This document shows, piece by piece, positions 16,378-38,994 of a stretch of DNA of 39,927 nt. The notes beneath the pieces were generated by a model. That model saw nothing but the letters and a program-made list of their open reading frames with translations, did not search any database and was not told the DNA's origin. The position numbers were made by a program, and so were the translations under genes. The number at the start of each line of letters is the position of its first letter. Within the stretch, counting starts at the first letter, position 1. The stretch comes from a virus (Duplodnaviria; Heunggongvirae; Uroviricota; Caudoviricetes), in IMG/VR virus record IMGVR_UViG_2711768036_000007; one strand, written 5' to 3'.

Positions 16378-16701
16378 ATGAAGATGCCAGAAAAACATGA
16401 CCTGTTAGCCGCCATTCTCGCGGCAAAGGAACAAGGCATCGGGGCAATCCTTGCGTTTGCAATGGCGTACCTTCGCGGCAGATATAATGGCGGTGCGTTT
16501 ACAAAAACAGTAATCGACGCAACGATGTGCGCCATTATCGCCTGGTTCATTCGTGACCTTCTCGACTTCGCCGGACTAAGTAGCAATCTCGCTTATATAA
16601 CGAGCGTGTTCATCGGCTACATCGGTACTGACTCGATTGGTTCGCTTATCAAACGCTTCGCTGCTAAAAAAGCCGGAGTAGAAGATGGTGGAAATCAATA
16701 A
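16378..16701 (+). CDS. S: Holin S (class I, dual-start MKM)
   Basis: 107 aa; [41 protein letters not shown] matches lambda S as I recall it. Confidence 0.9.
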
Positions 16702-17161
16702 TCAACGTAAGGCGTTCCTCGATATGCTGGCGTGGTCAGAGGGAACTGATAACGGACGTCAGAAAACCAGAAATCATGGTTATGACGTCATTGTTGGCGG
16801 AGAGCTATTCACTGATTACTCCGATCACCCTCGCAAACTTGTCACGCTAAACCCAAAACTCAAATCAACAGCAGCCGGGCGCTATCAGCTTCTTTCCCGT
16901 TGGTGGGATGCCTACCGCAAGCAGCTTGGCCTGAAAGACTTCTCTCCGAAAAGCCAGGACGCTGTGGCACTGCAGCAGATTAAGGAGCGTGGCGCTTTAC
17001 CGATGATTGATCGCGGTGATATTCGTCAGGCTATCGACCGTTGCAGCAATATCTGGGCTTCACTGCCGGGTGCTGGTTATGGTCAGTTCGAGCATAAGGC
17101 TGACAACCTGATTGCAAAATTCAAAGAAGCAGGCGGAACGGTCAGAGAGATTGAGGTATGA
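16685..17161 (+). CDS. R: Endolysin R (lytic transglycosylase)
   Basis: 158 aa; [35 protein letters not shown] matches lambda R as I recall it. Confidence 0.9.
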
Positions 17162-17595
17162 GCAGAGTAACCGCGATTATCTCCGCTCTGGTTATCTGCA
17201 TCATCGTCTGTCTGTCATGGGCTGTTAATCATTACCGTGATAACGCCATGACCTACAAAGAACAGCGCGACAAAGCCACATCCATCATCGCTGACATGCA
17301 GAAGCGTCAACATGATGTAGCAGAACTCGACGCCAGATACACAAAGGAGCTTGCTGATGCTAACGCGACTATCGAAAGTCTCCGTGCTGATGTTTCTGCT
17401 GGTCGTAAGCGCCTGCAAGTCGCCGCCACCTGTGCAAAGTCAACGACCGGAGCCAGCAGCATGGGCGATGGAGAAAGCCCAAGACTTACAGCAGATGCTG
17501 AACTCAATTATTACCGTCTCCGAAGTGGAATCGACAGGATAACCGCGCAGGTTAACTACCTGCAGGAGTACATCAGGACGCAATGCCTTCGATGA
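17158..17595 (+). CDS. Rz: Spanin inner-membrane subunit Rz
   Basis: 145 aa; N-terminal TM then coiled coil; position after R; resembles lambda Rz. Confidence 0.8.
17351..17542 (+). CDS. Rz1: Spanin outer-membrane lipoprotein Rz1 (embedded in Rz, +1 frame)
   Basis: Lipobox LVVSAC followed by Pro-rich segment; fully inside Rz. Confidence 0.7.
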
Positions 17596-29499: not shown

Positions 29500-30192
29500 A
29501 TGTTATATGCATTTAAGCTGGGCAGAAAACTGCGCGGCGAGGAACCTTATTGCCCTGAAAAAGGCGGGAAAGGTGGTAGCTCTGATAAAAGCGCAAAGTA
29601 TGCCGCAGAAGCTCAGAAGTATGCAGCAGACCTGCAAAATCAGCAGTGGCAGACGATCATGAAAAACCTTGCTCCGTTCACGCCTCTTGCGGAGCAGTAT
29701 GTTAACCAGCTTCAGAACCTTTCCAGTTTAGAAGGTCAGGGGCAGGCACTTAATCAGTATTACAACTCTCAGCAGTATAAAGACCTTGCAGGTCAGGCTC
29801 GTTACCAGAGTCTTGCTGCTGCGGAGGCTACGGGAGGACTTGGTTCGACAGCCACAAGCAATCAACTGGCTACGATCGCGCCGACTCTCGGTCAGTCTTG
29901 GTTATCAAACCAGATGAGCAATTACAATAATCTGGCAAACGTTGGGCTTGGTGCGCTGCAAGGTCAGGCAAACGCCGGGCAGACGTACGCCAACAACATG
30001 AGCAGCATTGCACAGCAAAGCGCAGCACTTGCCGCTGCTAATGCCAATAAACCATCAAGCCTTCAGACTGCCATTAGCGGCGGCACGTCTGGTGCGATTG
30101 CCGGTGCAGGTCTTGCCAGCCTTTTGGGAACATCAACGCCTTGGGGCGCTGGCATTGGTGCTGGTATCGGATTGCTTGGCTCGTTGTTTTAA
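29500..30192 (+). CDS. Ejection protein (P22 gp7-like)
   Basis: 230 aa, Gln/Ala/Gly-rich with hydrophobic C-terminus; position as gp7. Confidence 0.65.
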   Translation: MLYAFKLGRKLRGEEPYCPEKGGKGGSSDKSAKYAAEAQKYAADLQNQQWQTIMKNLAPFTPLAEQYVNQLQNLSSLEGQGQALNQYYNSQQYKDLAGQARYQSLAAAEATGGLGSTATSNQLATIAPTLGQSWLSNQMSNYNNLANVGLGALQGQANAGQTYANNMSSIAQQSAALAAANANKPSSLQTAISGGTSGAIAGAGLASLLGTSTPWGAGIGAGIGLLGSLF

Positions 30193-30201
30193 GGGGTAAT
30201 C

Positions 30202-31533
30202 ATGGCTACTTGGCAAGGAACAAACGGCGGATTGTTGGCTGGTATCGGCGGCGTCAACTCAAACGCTCCGAGCGCAAATGACATCGGCAATACGCTTCAG
30301 TTTATCAGGCAGAACAATGATATTGAGCGTTCAGGCGCTAACAATGTTGGGCTGACTGCTTTGCAAGGTCTTTCAGGTATTGCAGGGGTGTTTCAGCAGG
30401 AAAAGCAGGCTCAGCGGCAGAAAGAATTTCAGCAGGCGTACGCTAATGCTTATGCGTCTGGTGATCGCGGTGCTTTGCGTCAGTTGGCTACTCAATATCC
30501 AGACCAGATTGAATCCGTTCGTAAAGGCATGGGATTCATTGATGAAGAGCAGCGTAATTCTATCGGCACCTTAGCGGCTGGCGCACGCCTTGCGTCATCG
30601 TCTCCAGAAGCAATGCAATCATGGCTGCAAAACAACGCCGGTGAGTTAGCTCGTGTTGGCGTTAATCCTCATGACGTCGCTCAGATGTACCAACAGAACC
30701 CGCGGCAGTTCGGCGAATTTGTCGATCACCTGGGGATGAACAGTCTCGGGCCCGAAAAATACTTTGACCTACAGGATAAAATGCAGGGTCGCCAGGTTAC
30801 CATGCGCGGTCAGGATCTGGATTCGCAAACCGCCGCTCGGAATCAGGCAATCACAATGCGCGGACAAGATATCCAGGCGAATTTAGGTCAGCAGCGCATT
30901 AATCTGGACGCAGAAACAAACCGCATTAACAACGAAAATAAGCGCCTTGACCGGATGCTATTAGCAGAAACTAACGACCTGAAGCGCCAGGAAATACAGA
31001 GCCGCATAGCAGCCAACAACCAGCAGTTGCAGCAGAAGCAGCAAGCGCTAAATGATGGCTACAAAGACGGCATCAACACCCTCACAACCAGCATGTTCAC
31101 TCTGAACGATATCGTTAGTTCTCCTTCACTTAAGAGCATTACAGGCTTACGTGGAGTAATCCCCAACGTTCCAGGCTCACAGGCTGCAGACACTCAGGCA
31201 CGACTTGATACCTTTAAATCCCAAGCATACCTGACAGCGGTTCAGGCCATGCGAGGCATGGGCGCACTTTCTGATGCCGAGGGCAAAAAGCTCGACCAGG
31301 CTGTTGGTTCGCTGCAGAACTCGCAGAGCGAGGAGTCCTTTCGTCGCAACGCTGGCGTCATCCTGAACACGCTCAACCAGAAGCGTAATGAGGCGGTTGG
31401 TAAGTACGTTCAGCAAAACGGTATCAAGCGAGTGGAAGCGCCTCAGGCTTCTATAGATTACCTGAAGCAGCACCCCGAGCTGTCAATCGACTTCATTAAT
31501 CGCTACGGATATCTTCCATCTTTGGGGCAGTAA
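30202..31533 (+). CDS. Ejection protein (P22 gp20-like)
   Basis: 443 aa, position as gp20. Confidence 0.65.
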   Translation: MATWQGTNGGLLAGIGGVNSNAPSANDIGNTLQFIRQNNDIERSGANNVGLTALQGLSGIAGVFQQEKQAQRQKEFQQAYANAYASGDRGALRQLATQYPDQIESVRKGMGFIDEEQRNSIGTLAAGARLASSSPEAMQSWLQNNAGELARVGVNPHDVAQMYQQNPRQFGEFVDHLGMNSLGPEKYFDLQDKMQGRQVTMRGQDLDSQTAARNQAITMRGQDIQANLGQQRINLDAETNRINNENKRLDRMLLAETNDLKRQEIQSRIAANNQQLQQKQQALNDGYKDGINTLTTSMFTLNDIVSSPSLKSITGLRGVIPNVPGSQAADTQARLDTFKSQAYLTAVQAMRGMGALSDAEGKKLDQAVGSLQNSQSEESFRRNAGVILNTLNQKRNEAVGKYVQQNGIKRVEAPQASIDYLKQHPELSIDFINRYGYLPSLGQ

Positions 31534-34161
31534 ATGGCTAATTACCGTGATTTGTTAGAGCAGGCTGGCGCACGTTACGGTGTGCCAGAAGGGTTGATGA
31601 CTGCACTGGGTGCCAAGGAGTCTTCTTACAACCCTGCCGCAGTAAGCTCCGCCGGGGCTGTAGGATTGACTCAGGTCATGCCTGGGACATGGCGTGATAT
31701 GGGTTATACCGATGAGCAAATGCAAAACCCCGAATATCAGGCTGACGCTGGCGCGCGCTATCTGGCAAAGATGTACCAGCAGTTTGGTAACTGGCGTGAC
31801 GCTCTTCAGGCTTATCACGACGGTCCCGGCAACGTTATGAAGGCAAAGCGTGGTGAATATACGCCAGGACCTGAAGGCCGCGGTTACGTTGATGATCGCT
31901 TTGCTCAATGGGCGGGTGACCCGGTGACAGACTCAACAGTCGAACAGCGCGCCACCTCTGCAAAGGTACATCCTCAGCAAGACCCTAACAACCCGTTTGC
32001 ACAACTGGAAGTACAGTCATCCGAACAAGTATCAGCATCAGGTGTGCAGTCAGACCCAAATAATCCATTTGCTCAGATTGAGCAGCAGGCAGCCAGTCAG
32101 CAGCCACCTCAACCCGTAAGTTCTGTCGCACCGAAACCTGTTCAGCAACAAACAGTTAATCAGGCCAATAATGAACCAGCACGTGAAGAACCATCATTGA
32201 TGCAACAAGCTGGCGATTGGCTCACAGGTGGTCAAAGTGCAGGGCAAATTGCAGAGCAGGCTGGTCGTGGTCTGGTAAACATACCATTCGACGTATTACA
32301 GGGCGGCGCAAGCCTGATTAATGCAATCAGTCAGGGGCTTGGTGGCCCCAAGGTTTTGGATGATGTTTATCGCCCTGTCGATCGACCGACAGACCCTTAC
32401 GCACAAGCCGGTGAAACAATTGGTGGGTATCTCCTGCCAATTGGCACAGCGGCAAAAGCTGCTGGAGCGACAGCAAAGCTCGCAGGAGACATCGGTTCCG
32501 CAGGAAACATGATTGCCGGTTCTCTTGCTGATGCTGCAAATCAGGAGGGTGATTTTGCACAAAATGCTGCCATTAACGGTGGTATCAATATTGGTGCTCA
32601 AGGCGTTATTTCAGGTGTCGGGCGCGTTATTGCGCCAAGGGTTTCACAGGCTCTTGGTGGTGCAGCACTGAATTCTGCTAATGATGTTTCCAGGATGGCA
32701 AAGTCAGGTGCTGGGCGTCAGTCAATTGCCAGTCAGGCCGCTAATGTGTCCGAAGATGTAGCAAAAGCGGCTGAGTCTGCTGGAATTGATATAAACGCAT
32801 TAACACCAGGAATGCGATCTGGAAGTCGTGGAATTGCACAAGCCGAAGGCGCATTGGCATCAACACCAGGGATTGTTCAGGATGCCCATCAGGCAGCATT
32901 TAACGAAATATCATCAAAGTTAAGTCGAAACCTTGATGAATTTGGGGCCGCATCTGGAACGGCATCAGAAAAAAGTGCGGCTATAAAACAAAGGATTCTT
33001 CAAAATCTTGATCAGATGAAGGATGCTGAGCGCGCGGCATGGGATGACGTGCGGTCAACAATGCCAAATCAAAAAGCAAGAATGCTAAATGGTAATGCCG
33101 TTATTCAGGCAGAGCGATCTGCTGGCATACCGCTTACTCCTGAAATGAAACAGTTTGTTCAGGCAAACAATCAAGGTGGAGTAACATTTGATGGCATGAA
33201 AGCATGGAGAGCGAAATTTGCTGATGCGGAGCAAAAATATAAGCGTAGCGGAGAGGTAAATGCGGCAAGGAGAGCAGGGGAAATACGTCGGGCAATTACT
33301 GATGATATGCGCACAATGGCGGAAAACGGCGGATTTTTTGATGACTGGCAAAAAGCTAATGATCTGTCTAAAGCGAGGCTATCCGCACAAGAGAGTGCAG
33401 AGTCTGTTTTTGGGCGTGATTTGGCAACAGATGCACTGATTACGAATGGAGTAAAATCTCTTCAATCATCGTCAGCTAAAGGTCTTAATGGTCCTGCTGG
33501 ATTCCATTCTATGATCCGCGCGCTGCCAGAATCAGAGCGCGTTCCTGCTATATCATCAATGTTGCAGGATGCTATCTCGCATGGTGTACGTGGTGGCAAA
33601 TCTGATGCAGCAGGAATTAACCATATCGCAGGGATACTTACCCCACAAAATGTAAAAGCCATTAGCAGATATTCCTCAGAACTTGGAAGAATTGCTGATG
33701 CATATGGCACTCTTGCAAGAGCAGCAGTGAAACCTCAGCAGTATATTGAAAGAACAGGGAGAACTGCCAATGTACTACGCGATCTGGATGCTGGTTTATC
33801 CAACGTCACATCAACAGTGTTAAATGCAATTGCCAACTCAACATCAGGTGCCATTGTTGGTGGCGCTGGAGGGGGTATTGCAGGCGCTGCCGCGGGTGCT
33901 TTAGTTGGCGCCGGGTTAAAAGGCGCTGTATCTAAAATTGCCACCACACGTAGTGGTCGATATGCGATAGAGAAAGCTGTTCAGGAAGCCACCAAAGCAG
34001 TAAGAGCAGGCGGAAGCAAAGAAGCATTAGCGGCGGCGGAACGCAGATTTATAGCAAATAAAGCCGCCGTAAAAGCAATACGCGATGCTATTGGTAGCGA
34101 TGAATTCAATCGCTTGTCGAGAGCTGGTATTGTCGCCTCGTTAAGCGGTATGAATGAATAG
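31534..34161 (+). CDS. Ejection protein (gp16 position) with N-terminal lytic transglycosylase (SLT) domain
   Basis: 875 aa; N-terminal GAKESSYNP...[10 protein letters not shown]...YHDGPG resembles SLT domain. Confidence 0.65.
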
Positions 34162-34163
34162 CT

Positions 34164-34649
34164 TTATCTAATGTTGCTGCTACTGTTGCATGTGACGGTG
34201 TTTCCAAATCCTGAATTGCAGTTTGTATATGTGTCAACGCGCGTTGGGTAAGGTTGAGTTATAACAGGCTGGCGCGCTTTTTGCTCGATCGCTTGCATTG
34301 TGTTTACAGCCTGATAATTCAACAAAGCCTGCTGGAATGCTTGGCTTTGTGCTATTTGTTGGGCTTGTTCTTGGCTTTGTAATTGAACATAAAGATTCTG
34401 AAGCTCAAGTCTTGCCTGTGCGTCACTTATCTTGCCTTCATCGACACCTTGCCCGAGCATCTTTGCAGCAAGGACATACAGCTTAGGTGTTGGTGCTGAT
34501 GCCATGCGTGAGTCGTTCTTCACACTGGCATCAAGGCAATTAGCCATATCGCTAAGCTTTTGATAGCGTTGTTCGCAACTTGCTTGATAGTCACTTACTT
34601 TTGCGCATCCAACCAGCAGAAGCGGGATAATTAACAGTGATTTTTTCAT
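34164..34649 (-). CDS. Lipoprotein, Gln-rich, at the sieA position downstream of mnt
   Basis: From internal Met with AAGGAG RBS: signal MKKSLLIIPLLLVGC (lipobox LVGC); 161 aa; converges on end of ejection gene. Confidence 0.65.
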   Translation of the reverse strand: MKKSLLIIPLLLVGCAKVSDYQASCEQRYQKLSDMANCLDASVKNDSRMASAPTPKLYVLAAKMLGQGVDEGKISDAQARLELQNLYVQLQSQEQAQQIAQSQAFQQALLNYQAVNTMQAIEQKARQPVITQPYPTRVDTYTNCNSGFGNTVTCNSSSNIR

Positions 34650-34719
34650 ATGGTTAACTCTCCTTAGTTTTTCACAGGATATCATGAAGGCAATGCCATT
34701 TTAGCCGGAAACTAGATTT

Positions 34720-34986
34720 CTATGTTTCCTTTTTATTATTGATATACATGGTCTTAAGCGTTTCAAAAACCATTTTCTTAACCATATCAGATTGTTGTTC
34801 TGCTATACGCTCTGCATCGTCAATGTAAACGGATGCAGAGCTTTGTTTAGCCAATGATTCTTCAATCGCTGCAATTATCTCTGAGTTCAGCGACCTGTTA
34901 TTCATCTTTGCACGCTGTTTAATTTTCGCGTGGAGTTCATGCGGAAGTCTCAAGTGAAACTGCGCCTCGTCGTATTTGCTGTACAT
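34720..34986 (-). CDS. mnt: Mnt-like repressor (ribbon-helix-helix, Arc/MetJ family)
   Basis: From internal Met: FHLRLPHELHAKIKQRAKMNNRSLNSEII...DDAERIAEQQSDMVKKMVFETLK resembles P22 Mnt (NDAERLADEQSELVKKMVFDTLK). Confidence 0.7.
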   Translation of the reverse strand: MYSKYDEAQFHLRLPHELHAKIKQRAKMNNRSLNSEIIAAIEESLAKQSSASVYIDDAERIAEQQSDMVKKMVFETLKTMYINNKKET

Positions 34987-35121
34987 CCGTGATGCCTCAC
35001 CAGTTGGGTGGAATGGCATCGTAAAACCTACTGTACAAATCAACAATCGTACCATTTCGGTATGTAACAAATGCCAACCGTAGCCATGCTGCGGCGATTC
35101 CTTGTATCTGGAGCAAATTAA

Positions 35122-37359
35122 ATGACAGACATTACAGCCAATGTGATCGTATCAATGCCTTCGCAACTCTTCACTATGGCGCGTTCTTTTAAAGCCGTAG
35201 CCAATGGCAAAATTTATATCGGTAAAATTGACACTGACCCGGTAAATCCTGAAAACCAGATTCAGGTTTATGTAGAGAATGAAGACGGTTCTCACGTTCC
35301 TGTTTCTCAACCAATCATCATTAACGCTGCTGGTTACCCTGTATATAACGGACAGATTGCCAAATTCGTTACCGTGCAAGGCCATTCTATGGCTGTTTAT
35401 GATGCGTATGGTGCACAGCAGTTCTATTTTTCGAATGTGCTGAAGTATGACCCTGACCAACTCAGGCAAGATCTTGCATCTCAAGGAGGTGTTAATCTGG
35501 TAAACGGAGCTATCTCACAGGAAGATCTTGTTTTGCAGTCGATCACAAAAATTCCAAGTTATGATAATTCTAACGTAGTCCAGGCGTGGCGCGATAGTGT
35601 TGCGACCTACGGGTATGTTTACTTCTCTAATCATTCAAAAAATCAGATGGTGTACACCGTACCGTCTACAGCTGCTAACGCTTCTTTCCTTGCGAACAGT
35701 AAAGTAATCATTGATAAAAATGTCACCCTGAGATTCGACAGTGATCTGTACTCACTGTTTAAATCGTTGCAGTACGAGGGGGAGGGTACGTTTGAATTTA
35801 CGCACCTGAACTTTAAAGCAACCGGTGGAGAAGTGGATTATCTGGCTAAGCAGGCCATCCTCAACCGAAACCCTATTCGCATGAAGCGAGTGGAATGGTC
35901 AGATTGTAAAGTTTATTCCATAAATGGTGACACGTTCTTCTATGAAGGTGAAGTCACCATATCCTCAGATAGCGCAGCTATCTTCCCCTTAACTACTGAC
36001 CGTACAACAGGCCTGTTCGCACCAATAGATATTGGAGAGCATATTTCTGCACATATTCGTATGGAATCTCAGGCCGCCTCAGAAGTTGGGATTGTTCTGC
36101 GATGCTCTGGTGGTTGGATGATGTTCTATGGGGCACCAGGTGCTACACAGTGGTCTTATAGACAGAAACCAATTGGTGGTCCAGTAGCAGAAGGAACTCC
36201 ATTCCCGCTGCCAGGAGGTTTACTGTCGTACGCCCCGGGCAAAGCAACCGTTGGCGTATCACTGCAAGGTAAAAACTGGGCGCAGATAACGATGAATGGC
36301 GTTGGGATACGCTTGCCCTTTGATACTGCTGATGTAGGGGATGTATACGAAGTTGGGTTTGTTGCACTGACCCCGGCATCTGGAGGTTCTGCGCGTGTAA
36401 CTGGATTATGCAGCTACACCTCTGATAATGGTGTGCACGGTAAGCCTCCACTTAATATCCTTATCCACGGTGATAGTACAGCTGAGGATTTCATTTCCGC
36501 GTTCAGCTCGTACATTCCGCAATTAATGGATGGAGCGAACGGCCACCGTTCACATAGCATTGTAAACAAGGCAGTTGCCGGACAGACAATGAGGCAACAG
36601 TTAGATCTCCTGAAGGCTCAGGGGCCGGGTGATGCTTACATCGTTATTATGGTTGCCGGAACTAACGAAGGGCAGGCAAACCAAAACGGCGATTATATGG
36701 CGGCACTGATAGATGAGTTTGTCTTATATTGCAATGGCCTTGGTCGTATCCCTGTTTGGGTTGAGCCGTGGATGTGGTATAGCCAGTCATTTATTGGCGG
36801 TGCTGGTCAACCATCAGCAAATTACGATGGTGTTGCGGAGTTACGCGAGGCTGGTAAACGCCAGATGATGAAATATGGCAATAACGTCATTTGTGTAACA
36901 ACAACTCACCAGCTCCCGGCCCCATATCCAGAGTATTTCAACACGCAATACGACCCACTTCTGCGTGATGACATTCACCAAAGCCAGTTAGGGTATCGTC
37001 TGTATGCGGAAATTATCTGCTCTGCCATTATCGACTGGTGGTCGCGTGTTGATTACACGCCAAGAGCAGCTGTTCAATGGTGGGCTGGAACAAACGTAAC
37101 AGTACAGGAACCGTCAAGTTTAACTGCCAATTCAATTAATATTAAACTGGCAGCCACTTCATTTGCGAATGGCAATACTGTTCTAACGCTTCCGAGGTGG
37201 TGCAGACCAAAAGTAACCAAAAATGTCCCTGTACCGTTCACTGCTGATGGCGTTTCATTTGGCATGGCAATGGCCACCATTAATGCTTCAACAGGACAAA
37301 TATCGATTGAAGGGTCCACCACTACATCTCCAACGTTCTACATAGATGCGACATGGTAG
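35122..37359 (+). CDS. Tailspike: P22-type N-terminal head-binding domain fused to a domain with SGNH-esterase signature
   Basis: N-terminus [43 protein letters not shown] resembles P22 gp9; downstream blocks IHGDS, VAGQT, GTNE, DDIHQS fit SGNH blocks I, II, III, V. Confidence 0.8.
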
Positions 37360-38761: not shown

Positions 38762-38770
38762 TTTTTACCC
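38726..38770. promoter_or_regulatory. Putative integrase arm-type repeats (GGGTAAAA x2 and TTTTACCC) overlapping int 5-prime end
   Basis: Same octamer as at 1764..1783. Confidence 0.4.
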
Positions 38771-38886
38771 GTCATGGAGTGCGGCTGTCAACGATCTGAC
38801 GCGAACCATTACGAACTGTGAATCTACGGAAGGCTTGATATTCAGGGGATTTTGCGGACTGGTACGGATGGGAGCGAACTGATAAA

Positions 38887-38901
38887 TGGTGTCCCCTGCA
38901 G
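38887..38901. repeat. Right attachment-site core (direct repeat)
   Basis: Exact 15-nt match to 1690..1704. Confidence 0.7.
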
Positions 38902-38919
38902 CCATTTAACTAAGAGGAC
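38887..38919 (-). tRNA. argW: argW tRNA-Arg(CCU) remnant: 5-prime 18 nt fused directly to 3-prime 15 nt (central ~42 nt absent)
   Basis: Minus strand reads GTCCTCTTAGTTAAATGG + CTGCAGGGGACACCA; both ends match argW as I recall it, but 33 nt cannot form a tRNA. Confidence 0.4.
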
Positions 38920-38994
38920 AATGCGGCATGAGTATACCCGCTAATGGACTGCGGGGTAAGTACGCTGCCGCTCGATTGCTTAAACCCTCGCCAT

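What the first reader, a model, noticed from the sequence alone, without database searches (positions are those of the whole stretch)
34164..34986. mnt-lipoprotein pair at the sieA position, with arc/ant absent
In P22 the interval between ejection gene 16 and the tailspike holds sieA and the immI genes mnt-arc-ant. Here only an Mnt-like repressor is present, and immediately downstream on the same strand is a 161-aa Gln-rich lipoprotein with its own strong RBS. A lysogen-expressed surface lipoprotein at the sieA slot is a plausible superinfection-exclusion or receptor-blocking factor; what Mnt regulates without ant is unclear.
Basis: partly seen in the sequence, partly recalled or inferred. Interest (0 to 1): 0.65.

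Follow-up and report, generated by a model that had tools for sequence, protein, structure and literature searches.

The report
Prophage repressor plus uncharacterised envelope lipoprotein
A P22-like prophage carries, between its DNA-injection genes and its tailspike gene, a working Mnt-type repressor with its own operator and a strongly conserved outer-membrane lipoprotein of unknown function that a near-identical prophage expresses while dormant; the layout has been seen before, and a role in blocking other phages is plausible but untested.

Summary
On the minus strand lie an 88-aa Mnt homologue (34720-34986) and a 161-aa lipoprotein gene (34164-34649). They sit between the gp16-like ejection gene and the tailspike gene. 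Arc, Ant, SieA and orf59a are absent.

This is one known variant of the hypervariable "ant moron" of P22-like phages. The same layout occurs in E. coli B7A and O26:H11, and in Serratia, Proteus and Tatumella prophages.

New points:
- **Mnt looks functional.** A unique palindrome (35048-35064) lies exactly where P22 has its Mnt operator. It co-varies with the Mnt DNA-reading residues across phages. It sits between a Pmnt-like promoter and a Pant-like promoter that now points into the tailspike gene.
- **The lipoprotein is an independent cassette.** It always abuts gene 16, with or without mnt, arc or ant. It has a conserved -10 element of its own, and dN/dS is about 0.03-0.04.
- **It is expressed in lysogeny.** Its 97.5%-identical homologue in E. 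coli LF82 is transcribed while the late genes are silent.
- **It matches no known family or fold.** The model is a four-helix bundle, a Gln-rich helix and a C-terminal hairpin carrying a conserved cysteine pair.

Superinfection exclusion is the best guess (about 0.35-0.4) but is untested. Surface exposure is unsupported.

The parts
31534..34161 (+). gp16-like DNA ejection protein (875 aa) with an N-terminal SLT lytic-transglycosylase domain. This is context only: its stop codon lies 2 nt from the lipoprotein stop codon, and the two genes converge.
   Evidence: ORF list. Pfam SLT, E = 2.9e-25. The neighbours are P22_gp7 and Inj_translocase.
34164..34649 (-). Lipoprotein gene (161 aa; mature protein 147 aa). 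It encodes a signal peptide with lipobox LVGC (Cys15) and Ala at +2. The model shows a four-helix bundle containing the invariant pair Cys25/Cys38. A Gln-rich helix follows, running to about residue 125. The C-terminus is a beta-hairpin carrying a conserved cysteine pair (Cys144/Cys154).
   Evidence: Sequence and alignment. PHROG 6067 (function unknown), full-length match, E = 1.6e-110. AlphaFold2 mean pLDDT 80.6, with 90-95 over residues 21-90. dN/dS 0.03-0.04.
34660..34666 (-). Shine-Dalgarno sequence UAAGGAG of the lipoprotein gene, 10 nt upstream of the ATG.
   Evidence: Read directly from the sequence. Conserved in relatives.
34676..34684 (-). Extended -10-like element TGATATCCT. It is the putative promoter of the lipoprotein gene itself.
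   Evidence: A TGnTAnnnT motif lies at the same distance from the ATG in the window, VSe13, O26, B7A, JNE132847, both Tatumella loci and a metagenome-assembled genome that lacks mnt. Proteus and Morganella have TATAAT at that position. The promoter assignment is inferred; no transcription start site has been mapped.
34720..34986 (-). mnt homologue (88 aa). It has an N-terminal ribbon-helix-helix domain and a C-terminal Mnt tetramerisation helix. The DNA-reading strand is AQFHLRLP (Gln/His/Arg), where P22 has PHFNFRMP (His/Asn/Arg).
   Evidence: Pfam PF03869 and PF11423. Alignment of start sites with P22 and Gally mnt. N-terminal sequences.
35018..35046 (-). Pmnt-like promoter: -35 TTGTTG (35046-35041), a 17-nt spacer, and -10 TACGAT (35023-35018).
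   Evidence: It aligns column for column with the annotated P22 Pmnt, TTGAGA-17-TATCAT. The assignment is inferred.
35013..35040 (+). Pant-like promoter pointing at the tailspike gene: -35 ATGGCA (35013-35018), a 16-nt spacer, TG (35032-35033), and -10 ACAAAT (35035-35040). It overlaps Pmnt on the opposite strand, as in P22.
   Evidence: Position is homologous to P22 Pant. The match to consensus is weak, so this is inferred. In Gally the tailspike is transcribed while the late genes are silent.
35048..35064 (.). Putative Mnt operator, the 17-bp near-palindrome CGTACCATTTCGGTATG (core TACC-N5-GGTA).
   Evidence: It occupies the position of P22 Omnt in alignment A3. It is the only TACCN5GGTA in the window, against 0.10 expected by chance. 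The same site lies upstream of every Gln/His/Arg-type mnt examined, namely Sf101, JNE132847 and Serratia; the Serratia site is the perfect palindrome AGTACCATTATGGTACT.
35122..37359 (+). Tailspike (745 aa): a P22 head-binding domain followed by a GDSL/SGNH-like C-terminal part. It is the gene downstream of the Pant-like promoter.
   Evidence: Pfam Head_binding, E = 1.3e-66. Lipase_GDSL_2, E = 7e-4, is below the curated cut-off.

Best explanation
The region is a reduced variant of the P22 immI/sieA region, the 'ant moron' of P22-like phages. It is made of two separable units.

(1) A functional Mnt-family repressor.
- It binds a cognate 17-bp palindrome at 35048-35064.
- The palindrome lies between two overlapping divergent promoters, as in P22.
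- With Mnt bound, the Pant-like promoter is shut. That promoter now reads straight into the tailspike gene, because arc and ant are absent.
- With the Pant-like promoter shut, the Pmnt-like promoter is free to transcribe mnt.
- Because no terminator follows mnt, transcription probably continues into the lipoprotein gene.

(2) A moron cassette encoding a lipoprotein.
- Sequence rules predict that the product is exported by Sec, lipidated at Cys15 and sorted by Lol to the outer membrane.
- The conserved cysteine pairs suggest disulfide bonding.
- It has its own conserved -10 element and is made in the lysogen while the late genes are silent.
- It most likely acts in the cell envelope on a conserved host component. 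The effect would be to hinder the envelope-crossing or DNA-delivery step of superinfecting phages. That would make it an outer-membrane-side functional analogue of the inner-membrane SieA that occupies the same slot in P22.

Status of each step:
- Shown: gene content, homology, conservation, purifying selection, operator position and co-variation, and lysogenic transcription in a close relative.
- Inferred: the promoters, co-transcription of mnt and the lipoprotein gene, lipidation, outer-membrane location and disulfides.
- Guessed: the exclusion function.

My probabilities are about 0.85 for the architecture and the Mnt/operator unit, about 0.8 for a lysogen-expressed outer-membrane lipoprotein, and about 0.35-0.4 for exclusion.
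For: Mnt identity and absences:
- Both Mnt Pfam domains score above their cut-offs.
- There is no arc, ant, sieA or orf59a in the window.

Operator:
- The palindrome aligns with P22 Omnt AGGTCCACCGTGGACCT and with Gally AGACCACTGTGGTCT.
- Operator type tracks the reading-strand residues. His/Asn/Arg (P22) and Gln/Asn/Arg proteins (Gally and the Proteus and Providencia loci) go with a CCAC...GTGG core. Gln/His/Arg proteins go with TACC...GGTA.
- The TACC...GGTA site is unique in the window, against 0.1 expected, and recurs in Sf101, JNE132847 and Serratia.

Promoters: Pmnt and Pant positions are homologous to the annotated P22 features.

Lipoprotein as an independent cassette:
- In 17 of 17 P22-like loci long enough to show neighbours, it lies next to gene 16 and antisense to the late operon (an 18th contig is too short to tell).
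- mnt lies directly upstream, with no arc or ant, in 8 loci.
- An opposite-strand gene intervenes in 3 loci.
- A full mnt-arc-ant set is present in 3 loci.
- It stands alone in 3 loci.
- It has a conserved -10 element.

Selection and spread:
- dN/dS is 0.03-0.04.
- The gene is in 186 of 5426 complete E. coli genomes.

Expression, from LF82 RNA-seq:
- GALLYPH_13 reads 70 against a background of 15.6 in overnight LB. It is second only to the c2 repressor.
- The log2 value is 10.3 in macrophages, against 3-4 for structural genes.
- mnt, the tailspike gene and the gene after it rise together without late-gene induction.

Context for an exclusion role:
- The slot holds the exclusion gene sieA in P22 (PMC10883804).
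- Carriage in prophages of plant pathogens and insect symbionts (Pectobacterium, Symbiopectobacterium, Tatumella) fits a phage-centred role better than a mammal-specific one.
Against: - The lipoprotein C-terminal type does not track the gp16 C-terminal type.
- Very strong purifying selection is not what an arms-race interface usually shows.
- Remote relatives sit in ordinary chromosomal contexts. The ancestral function may therefore be housekeeping in the envelope.
- The Pant-like promoter is a weak consensus match, and the generic promoter scan missed it.
- In LF82, deleting mnt had no phenotype in the one assay tried, macrophage survival.
Confidence: 0.4

Rival explanations
1. The lipoprotein is a lysogenic-conversion factor that benefits the host, for example through envelope robustness, stress or serum resistance, or intracellular survival. 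It would be analogous in logic to lambda Bor or plasmid TraT, and would not be an anti-phage factor.
For: - In LF82 the homologue rises from log2 about 6.1 in LB to about 8 in DMEM and 10.3 inside macrophages at 1 h.
- The gene is carried by pathogenic lineages: O26:H11, O104:H4 C227-11, ETEC B7A and AIEC LF82.
- Strong purifying selection suggests a conserved host partner.
- Remote homologues are chromosomal.
Against: - There is no similarity to Bor, TraT, Lom or Ail families.
- The same gene in the same slot occurs in prophages of plant pathogens, insect symbionts and fish pathogens. A mammal-specific virulence role is therefore unlikely.
- No phenotype data exist.
Confidence: 0.25
2. The biologically important product is the minus-strand RNA. 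Lysogen transcription from Pmnt and the lipoprotein promoter would run antisense into the 3' end of gene 16. It would give sequence-specific immunity or transcriptional interference against late or tailspike transcripts. BTP1 STnc6030 does this in the same slot.
For: - In BTP1, an antisense RNA longer than 700 nt, lying between the injection gene and the tailspike gene, confers immunity to BTP1 but not to P22 (PMC7067206).
- Here the stop codons of gp16 and the lipoprotein gene are 2 nt apart.
- No terminator-like hairpin follows the lipoprotein gene for about 1.2 kb.
Against: - The ORF is under strong protein-level constraint (dN/dS 0.03-0.04).
- The lipobox and four cysteines are conserved down to 25-30% identity in 130 sequences.
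- The identical lipoprotein sits next to gp16 3' ends that are only 30-37% identical. Any antisense effect is therefore at most an add-on.
Confidence: 0.1
3. The region is a decaying immI remnant. Mnt would be a leftover without a target, as was suggested as one possibility for phage L. The lipoprotein would be a neutral passenger.
For: - Arc and Ant are absent.
- The ant moron has a high rate of gene flux (PMC2629481).
Against: - Mnt has both domains intact, with dN/dS of 0.1-0.4.
- Its operator co-varies with the reading residues and is kept at the homologous position in at least four phages that lack ant.
- The mnt-lipoprotein layout is conserved from E. coli to Proteus, Serratia and Tatumella.
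- The lipoprotein is under strong purifying selection and is transcribed.
Confidence: 0.05
4. The lipoprotein is a virion or lysis component, for example a spanin-like or tail-associated protein.
For: - It lies inside the late gene cluster.
- It has a weak PHROG hit to a 'minor tail protein' family, E = 0.0094.
- Its lipoprotein-plus-long-helix architecture superficially recalls spanins.
Against: - It is transcribed antisense to the late operon and is expressed when the late genes are off.
- The phage has its own holin and Rz genes at 16378-17595.
- The gene is absent from most isolated P22-like phages. Only 5 of 50,697 phage records carry it, so it is dispensable.
Confidence: 0.03

Closest known systems
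P22 immI region (mnt-arc-ant with Omnt, Pmnt and Pant) within the 'ant moron' of P22-like phages (Villafane et al. 2008)
   Same: - Same slot between gene 16 and the tailspike gene.
- mnt has the same orientation.
- A palindromic operator lies at the homologous position.
- The divergent promoter geometry overlaps in the same way.
- Lysogen-expressed genes are antisense to the late operon.
   Different: - There is no arc, ant or sar, so the Pant-like promoter leads directly to the tailspike gene.
- Mnt belongs to a different specificity class (Gln/His/Arg reading residues, TACC-N5-GGTA operator).
- A lipoprotein gene follows mnt in place of orf59a, the mnt terminator and sieA.
P22 SieA superinfection-exclusion protein
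   Same: - Same genomic slot and orientation.
- Expressed from the prophage.
- An envelope protein.
   Different: [quoted passage not shown]
- This protein is a lipoprotein with no transmembrane segment after the signal peptide.
- There is no sequence similarity and no co-variation with gp16.
Phage exclusion lipoproteins Llp (T5) and Cor (phi80/N15/T1)
   Same: - Small phage-encoded lipoproteins predicted to be outer-membrane anchored.
- This protein has conserved cysteine pairs that suggest disulfides.
- Those proteins act from the periplasmic side on a host outer-membrane protein, which is the working model proposed here.
   Different: - No sequence or fold relationship was detected.
- This protein is about twice as large.
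- Those proteins block FhuA-dependent siphoviruses, whereas P22-like phages start at the O-antigen.
- No target is known for this protein.
Mnt-only 'ant morons' of phages L, ST64T, ST104, Sf101 and IME10
   Same: - mnt is retained without arc or ant.
- Sf101 and IME10 carry the same Mnt type (93% identity) and the same operator.
   Different: - Those phages lack the lipoprotein gene. They carry another small ORF or nothing in its place.
BTP1 STnc6030 antisense RNA
   Same: - Lysogen-expressed minus-strand transcription in the same slot between the injection gene and the tailspike gene.
- It confers immunity.
   Different: - STnc6030 is non-coding.
- Here the transcript encodes two conserved proteins.

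Membership tests
Mnt repressor family (Arc/MetJ ribbon-helix-helix with C-terminal tetramerisation helix) | N-terminal Arc-like ribbon-helix-helix domain | tested here: met
   Pfam PF03869, E = 9e-15, 54.7 bits against a cut-off of 20.4, residues 7-49.
Mnt repressor family (Arc/MetJ ribbon-helix-helix with C-terminal tetramerisation helix) | C-terminal Mnt coiled-coil (tetramerisation) segment | tested here: met
   Pfam PF11423, E = 3.2e-11, 43.2 bits against a cut-off of 20.9, residues 57-81. 47% identical to P22 Mnt over 76 residues.
Mnt repressor family (Arc/MetJ ribbon-helix-helix with C-terminal tetramerisation helix) | Palindromic operator upstream of mnt, between divergent overlapping promoters | tested here: met
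   The 17-bp near-palindrome at 35048-35064 aligns with P22 Omnt. It is unique in the window and co-varies with the reading residues. Binding itself has not been tested.
Mnt repressor family (Arc/MetJ ribbon-helix-helix with C-terminal tetramerisation helix) | Represses the antirepressor gene ant | tested here: not met
   There is no ant or arc in the window. The promoter at the Pant position faces the tailspike gene.
Complete P22 immI region | mnt, arc, ant and the sar antisense RNA all present | tested here: not met
   Only mnt is present. Rfam finds nothing in the window.
SieA superinfection-exclusion proteins | Inner-membrane protein with three transmembrane segments and sequence similarity to SieA types A-C | tested here: not met
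   tblastn with P22 SieA gives a best E of 0.66. The lipoprotein has only an N-terminal signal peptide. SieA types B and C were not used as queries.
Bacterial lipoproteins (Lgt/LspA/Lnt substrates) | Signal peptide with a basic N-terminal region, a hydrophobic core and a lipobox [LVI][ASTVI][GAS]C | tested here: met
   The sequence is MKKSLLIIPLLLVG-C15. It satisfies the PROSITE PS51257-type rule as I recall it from memory. Cys15 is invariant in the close family and at least 90% conserved in 130 sequences. Lipidation itself cannot be tested with these tools.
Bacterial lipoproteins (Lgt/LspA/Lnt substrates) | Outer-membrane sorting (no Asp at +2) | tested here: met
   The +2 residue is Ala and the +3 residue is Lys; both are at least 90% conserved. 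This is a sequence rule only. Localisation and which face the protein is on have not been tested.
Known phage or plasmid envelope lipoproteins (Llp, Cor, Bor, TraT) and known defence-system proteins | Sequence or fold similarity to the family | tested here: not met
PHROG 6067 (uncharacterised phage protein family) | Full-length profile match | tested here: met
   E = 1.6e-110, residues 1-161 against profile positions 1-161.
Moron (independently expressed insert in a phage operon) | Variable presence among syntenic relatives, its own promoter, and expression in the lysogen | tested here: met
   It is absent from Dewey, Huey, Louie, Sf101, Sf6 and HK620, although the flanking genes are homologous. 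It has a conserved -10 element. In LF82 it is expressed with the late genes silent. A transcription start site has not been mapped.

The most novel reading that the evidence does not exclude
The lipoprotein founds a new family of lipid-anchored envelope exclusion factors of P22-like podoviruses, predicted to sit in the outer membrane. It would use a four-helix-bundle head to hold a conserved host envelope component. It would use its Gln-rich helix and cysteine-bearing hairpin to obstruct assembly of the gp7/gp20/gp16 trans-envelope channel. That would make it an outer-membrane-side counterpart of SieA. In parallel, Mnt would have been repurposed from antirepressor control into a lysogeny switch that turns on the moron and turns off a private tailspike promoter.
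Probability: 0.3. Interest if true: 0.65.

Novelty: new variant of a known kind. Interest (0 to 1): 0.42.

Why it matters
The gene is common. It is in 3.4% of complete E. coli genomes, including O26:H11 EHEC, the O104:H4 outbreak strain, ETEC B7A and AIEC LF82. The exact protein is on at least 1000 contigs. It is one of the few prophage genes transcribed during lysogeny, yet it has no annotation or known relative.

If it excludes phages, three things follow:
- It would add an outer-membrane-anchored mechanism to the single studied injection block for short-tailed phages, SieA.
- It would matter for phage therapy and for typing of these lineages.
- It would explain why the slot next to the injection genes is a hotspot for envelope morons.

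The Mnt/operator co-variation also offers a natural set of altered-specificity ribbon-helix-helix repressor-operator pairs. It gives a testable answer to why mnt persists in phages that have lost ant.

Tried and rejected
Searches that found nothing specific for the lipoprotein:
- Pfam, NCBIfam and PADLOC.
- PDB sequence searches with the single sequence and with a profile.
- Foldseek against BFVD.
- The AFDB50 library was unavailable.
- Rfam found no RNA family in the whole window.

Other checks:
- An exhaustive HMM search found 250 remote clusters. They are unnamed metagenomic proteins. Their contexts are mixed: phage-like, housekeeping, and next to TIR/STAND genes. No functional lead emerged.
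- I tested whether the lipoprotein C-terminal variant co-varies with the adjacent gp16 C-terminus, as a SieA-like target relationship might predict. It does not.
- I considered an inhibitor of the gp16 SLT domain. I set this aside because the same lipoprotein sits next to gp16 proteins of three different lengths and divergent sequence, and some neighbouring gp16 proteins in other genera have no recorded SLT hit.
- The generic promoter scan missed every promoter proposed here. The promoters rest on homology to annotated P22 features and on conservation.
- Five literature searches found no functional study of this protein.
- Longer ORF versions were rejected on alignment and ribosome-binding-site evidence: 173 aa for the lipoprotein and 99 or 116 aa for Mnt.
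Full report
**Context**

The window is a P22-like (Lederbergvirus) prophage with its late operon on the plus strand.
- P22_gp7 (29500-30192), the injectosome translocase (30202-31533) and an 875-aa gp16-like protein with an SLT domain (31534-34161) precede the finding.
- A tailspike with the P22 head-binding domain follows at 35122-37359.
- An IntS-type integrase and yfdC close the window. A LacY-family permease gene opens it.

**Observation**

Both ORFs are on the minus strand.

The 161-aa ORF (34164-34649):
- It begins MKKSLLIIPLLLVGC-AK, a canonical lipobox. The +2 residue is Ala, which predicts outer-membrane sorting by the +2 rule (established knowledge).
- A UAAGGAG Shine-Dalgarno sequence lies 10 nt upstream of the ATG.
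- Gln makes up 21 of 161 residues.

The 88-aa ORF (34720-34986):
- It hits Pfam Arc (E = 9e-15) and Repressor_Mnt (E = 3e-11).
- It is 47% identical to P22 Mnt.

tblastn with P22 Arc, Ant, SieA and orf59a finds nothing anywhere in the window. Two points were missing: the strand, and the fact that the lipoprotein stop codon is only 2 nt from the gp16 stop codon.

**Is the arrangement new? No**

The interval between gene 16 and the tailspike gene is the 'ant moron' of Villafane et al. 2008. That paper describes it as hypervariable, with ten types in sixteen genomes and with mnt-only versions in ST64T, ST104 and Para1 (PMC2629481). Phage L has mnt without arc, ant or sieA. Its authors wondered whether that mnt had a new function or was a remnant (PMC8022706).

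The exact layout of the window (mnt, a 70-bp gap, then the lipoprotein gene, with no arc or ant) occurs in:
- E. coli B7A, which was included in the 2008 comparison.
- O26:H11 FWSEC0001.
- JNE132847.

With shorter gaps it also occurs in Proteus phage Brookers, a Serratia prophage and Tatumella morbirosei.

**The lipoprotein is an independent, mobile cassette**

In 17 of 17 P22-like loci long enough to show neighbours, it sits immediately next to gene 16, convergent with it (an 18th contig is too short to tell). What lies upstream varies:
- mnt lies directly upstream, with no arc or ant, in 8 loci.
- An opposite-strand gene lies between mnt and the lipoprotein gene in 3 loci (Gally, vB_EcoP-720R6, VSe13).
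- A full mnt-arc-ant set is present in 3 loci (O104:H4 C227-11, Tatumella terrea, Pectobacterium).
- Nothing lies upstream in 3 loci (Yersinia ruckeri, Morganella and a metagenome-assembled genome).

Further observations:
- No locus has a P22-type SieA.
- A TGnTAnnnT or TATAAT element lies at a fixed distance of about 30-38 nt before the ATG in nearly all loci. This includes loci without mnt, and loci where the element falls inside the end of mnt. An own promoter is therefore likely, though inferred.
- In the window no terminator-like hairpin separates mnt from the lipoprotein gene. Read-through from Pmnt is also likely.

**Selection, spread and expression**
- dN/dS against relatives with dS of 0.08-0.62 is 0.03-0.04.
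- The gene is in 186 of 5426 complete E. coli genomes.
- The exact protein is on at least 1000 contigs.
- Only 5 of 50,697 isolated-phage records carry it.

Published RNA-seq of E. coli LF82 covers the 97.5%-identical Gally gene GALLYPH_13 (PMC9928086 S1 Table):
- It reads 70 normalised counts in overnight LB, against a prophage background of 15.6. It is second only to the c2 repressor.
- log2 values are about 8 in DMEM and 10.3 in macrophages at 1 h, while structural genes stay at 3-4.
- The authors' 5-fold cut-off (78) just excluded it, and they called Gally 'devoid of morons'.
- mnt, the tailspike gene and the gene after it rise together in macrophages without late-gene induction.

**What kind of protein is it?**

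No library recognises it:
- Pfam, NCBIfam, PADLOC and PDB sequence searches give nothing.
- PHROGs gives only phrog_6067, function unknown.

An exhaustive HMM search finds 250 remote clusters of lipoproteins of about 125-190 aa with the same plan. In a 130-sequence alignment Cys25 and Cys38 are invariant, and Cys15, Gln22, Tyr58, Leu65, Ala79 and Cys154 are at least 90% conserved. The contexts of these relatives are mixed: a phage-like contig, a housekeeping neighbourhood (uvrC, pgsA, EarP), and a position next to TIR/STAND genes.

With the deep alignment, AlphaFold2 gives mean pLDDT 80.6, with 90-95 over residues 21-90. The model has three parts:
- A four-helix bundle.
- A last helix that continues as a Gln-rich helix to residue 125.
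- A Pro-rich linker followed by a C-terminal beta-hairpin carrying the Cys144/Cys154 pair.

The identical C-terminal variant sits next to gp16 C-termini that are only 30-37% identical, and the converse also occurs. There is therefore no sign of co-evolution with gp16.

**What Mnt controls here**

Alignment of the mnt-upstream regions gives the following operator correspondence:

| Phage | Sequence at the Omnt position |
|---|---|
| P22 | AGGTCCACCGTGGACCT |
| Gally | AGACCACTGTGGTCT |
| Window (mnt-strand reading; + strand 35048-35064 is CGTACCATTTCGGTATG) | CATACCGAAATGGTACG |

The operator type follows the residues on the DNA-reading beta-strand:
- P22 (His/Asn/Arg) and Gally (Gln/Asn/Arg) use a CCAC...GTGG core. 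The Proteus and Providencia sites, also Gln/Asn/Arg, keep the GTGG half.
- The window, Sf101, VSe13, JNE132847 and Serratia (Gln/His/Arg) use TACC...GGTA.
- The Serratia site is the perfect palindrome AGTACCATTATGGTACT.

TACCN5GGTA occurs once in the window, against 0.10 expected by chance. A stricter version of the motif hits only the mnt-upstream sites of Sf101, JNE132847 and Serratia among the 25 loci then fetched.

Flanking the operator are two promoter-like elements, placed by homology to the annotated P22 features:
- Pmnt-like, minus strand: TTGTTG-17-TACGAT.
- Pant-like, plus strand: ATGGCA-16-TGtACAAAT. It overlaps Pmnt as in P22 and now points at the tailspike ATG about 75 nt downstream.

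The simplest reading is that the P22 switch logic is retained:
- With Mnt bound, the Pant-like promoter is off and Pmnt is on, giving mnt and probably the lipoprotein.
- Without Mnt, the Pant-like promoter feeds the tailspike gene.

This is inference. The Pant-like element is a weak consensus match, and the generic promoter scan found none of these promoters.

**Function of the lipoprotein**

I commit to an envelope-level anti-phage (exclusion) role as most likely, with probability about 0.35-0.4. The reasons are:
- The slot holds sieA in P22.
- The gene is expressed in lysogeny.
- It is strictly associated with P22-like phages across hosts that include plant pathogens and insect symbionts.
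- It lies next to the injection genes.

The very low dN/dS and the chromosomal relatives suggest that it binds a conserved host component rather than a fast-evolving phage protein.

Rivals:
- A host-benefit conversion factor (0.25), favoured by the induction in macrophages.
- An RNA-level antisense role like BTP1 STnc6030 (PMC7067206) (0.1). No terminator follows the lipoprotein gene, so this is probably an add-on at most.
- A decaying remnant (0.05).
- A virion or lysis component (0.03). The phage has its own holin and Rz.

**Verdict**

The feature is real, conserved and lysogeny-expressed, and its layout was seen before. It is interesting mainly for two reasons. A very common prophage lipoprotein family remains wholly uncharacterised. 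The Mnt/operator co-variation gives a concrete, testable answer to why mnt survives without ant.

Noticed in passing
window 38762-38994 (about 38900): No tRNA is detected between the IntS-type integrase and yfdC (ARAGORN and Rfam both negative). Alignment with E. coli JNE132847 shows a clean 42-bp internal deletion inside tRNA-Arg (argW), with flanks that are nearly identical (four mismatches over about 320 bp). It could be a real deletion in the attachment-site tRNA, or an assembly or editing artefact.
   Followed up: partly
window 35122-37359: The tailspike combines the P22 head-binding domain with a C-terminal GDSL/SGNH-esterase-like region (Pfam E = 7e-4, below the cut-off; PHROG 17606, function unknown). 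This suggests a deacetylase-type receptor-modifying spike. No gtr or oac conversion genes lie between the tailspike gene and int, whereas JNE132847 has a serine O-acetyltransferase there.
   Followed up: no
PMC9928086 S1 Table; Gally locus L002 2501-3016: The LF82 study concluded that Gally has no morons. GALLYPH_13 (the lipoprotein homologue) and GALLYPH_14 missed the 5-fold cut-off only narrowly in LB (70 and 51 against a cut-off of 78). They are among the most expressed prophage genes in DMEM and in macrophages.
   Followed up: yes
window 31534-31860: The gp16-like ejection protein carries an N-terminal SLT lytic-transglycosylase domain (E = 2.9e-25). gp16 proteins next to the same lipoprotein in other prophages differ in length (614, 665 and 875 aa) and are highly divergent in sequence.
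   Followed up: partly
L013 6001-6573 and L014 512-1084: A remote relative of the lipoprotein (190 aa) lies directly upstream of a TIR-domain protein and a STAND/WD40 NTPase on two metagenomic contigs. This may be a defence-island context.
   Followed up: no
window 34650-34685 and 34987-35070: Longer in-frame ORF versions exist: 173 aa for the lipoprotein and 99 or 116 aa for Mnt. Some public records annotate them (Gally gene 13 as 516 bp; Sf101 gp14 as 294 bp). Alignment and ribosome-binding sites favour the shorter starts.
   Followed up: yes
window 34809-34841: A perfect 10-bp inverted repeat, GCTCTGCATC/GATGCAGAGC, with a 13-nt loop lies inside the mnt coding sequence. Its significance is unknown.
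   Followed up: no
upstream of the lipoprotein gene in L001, L008 and L010 (alignment A2): A direct repeat TTGC-N6-7-TTGCA precedes the -10 element of the lipoprotein gene in VSe13 and both Tatumella loci. The window has GGCATTGCC at that position. It may be a regulator binding site.
   Followed up: no
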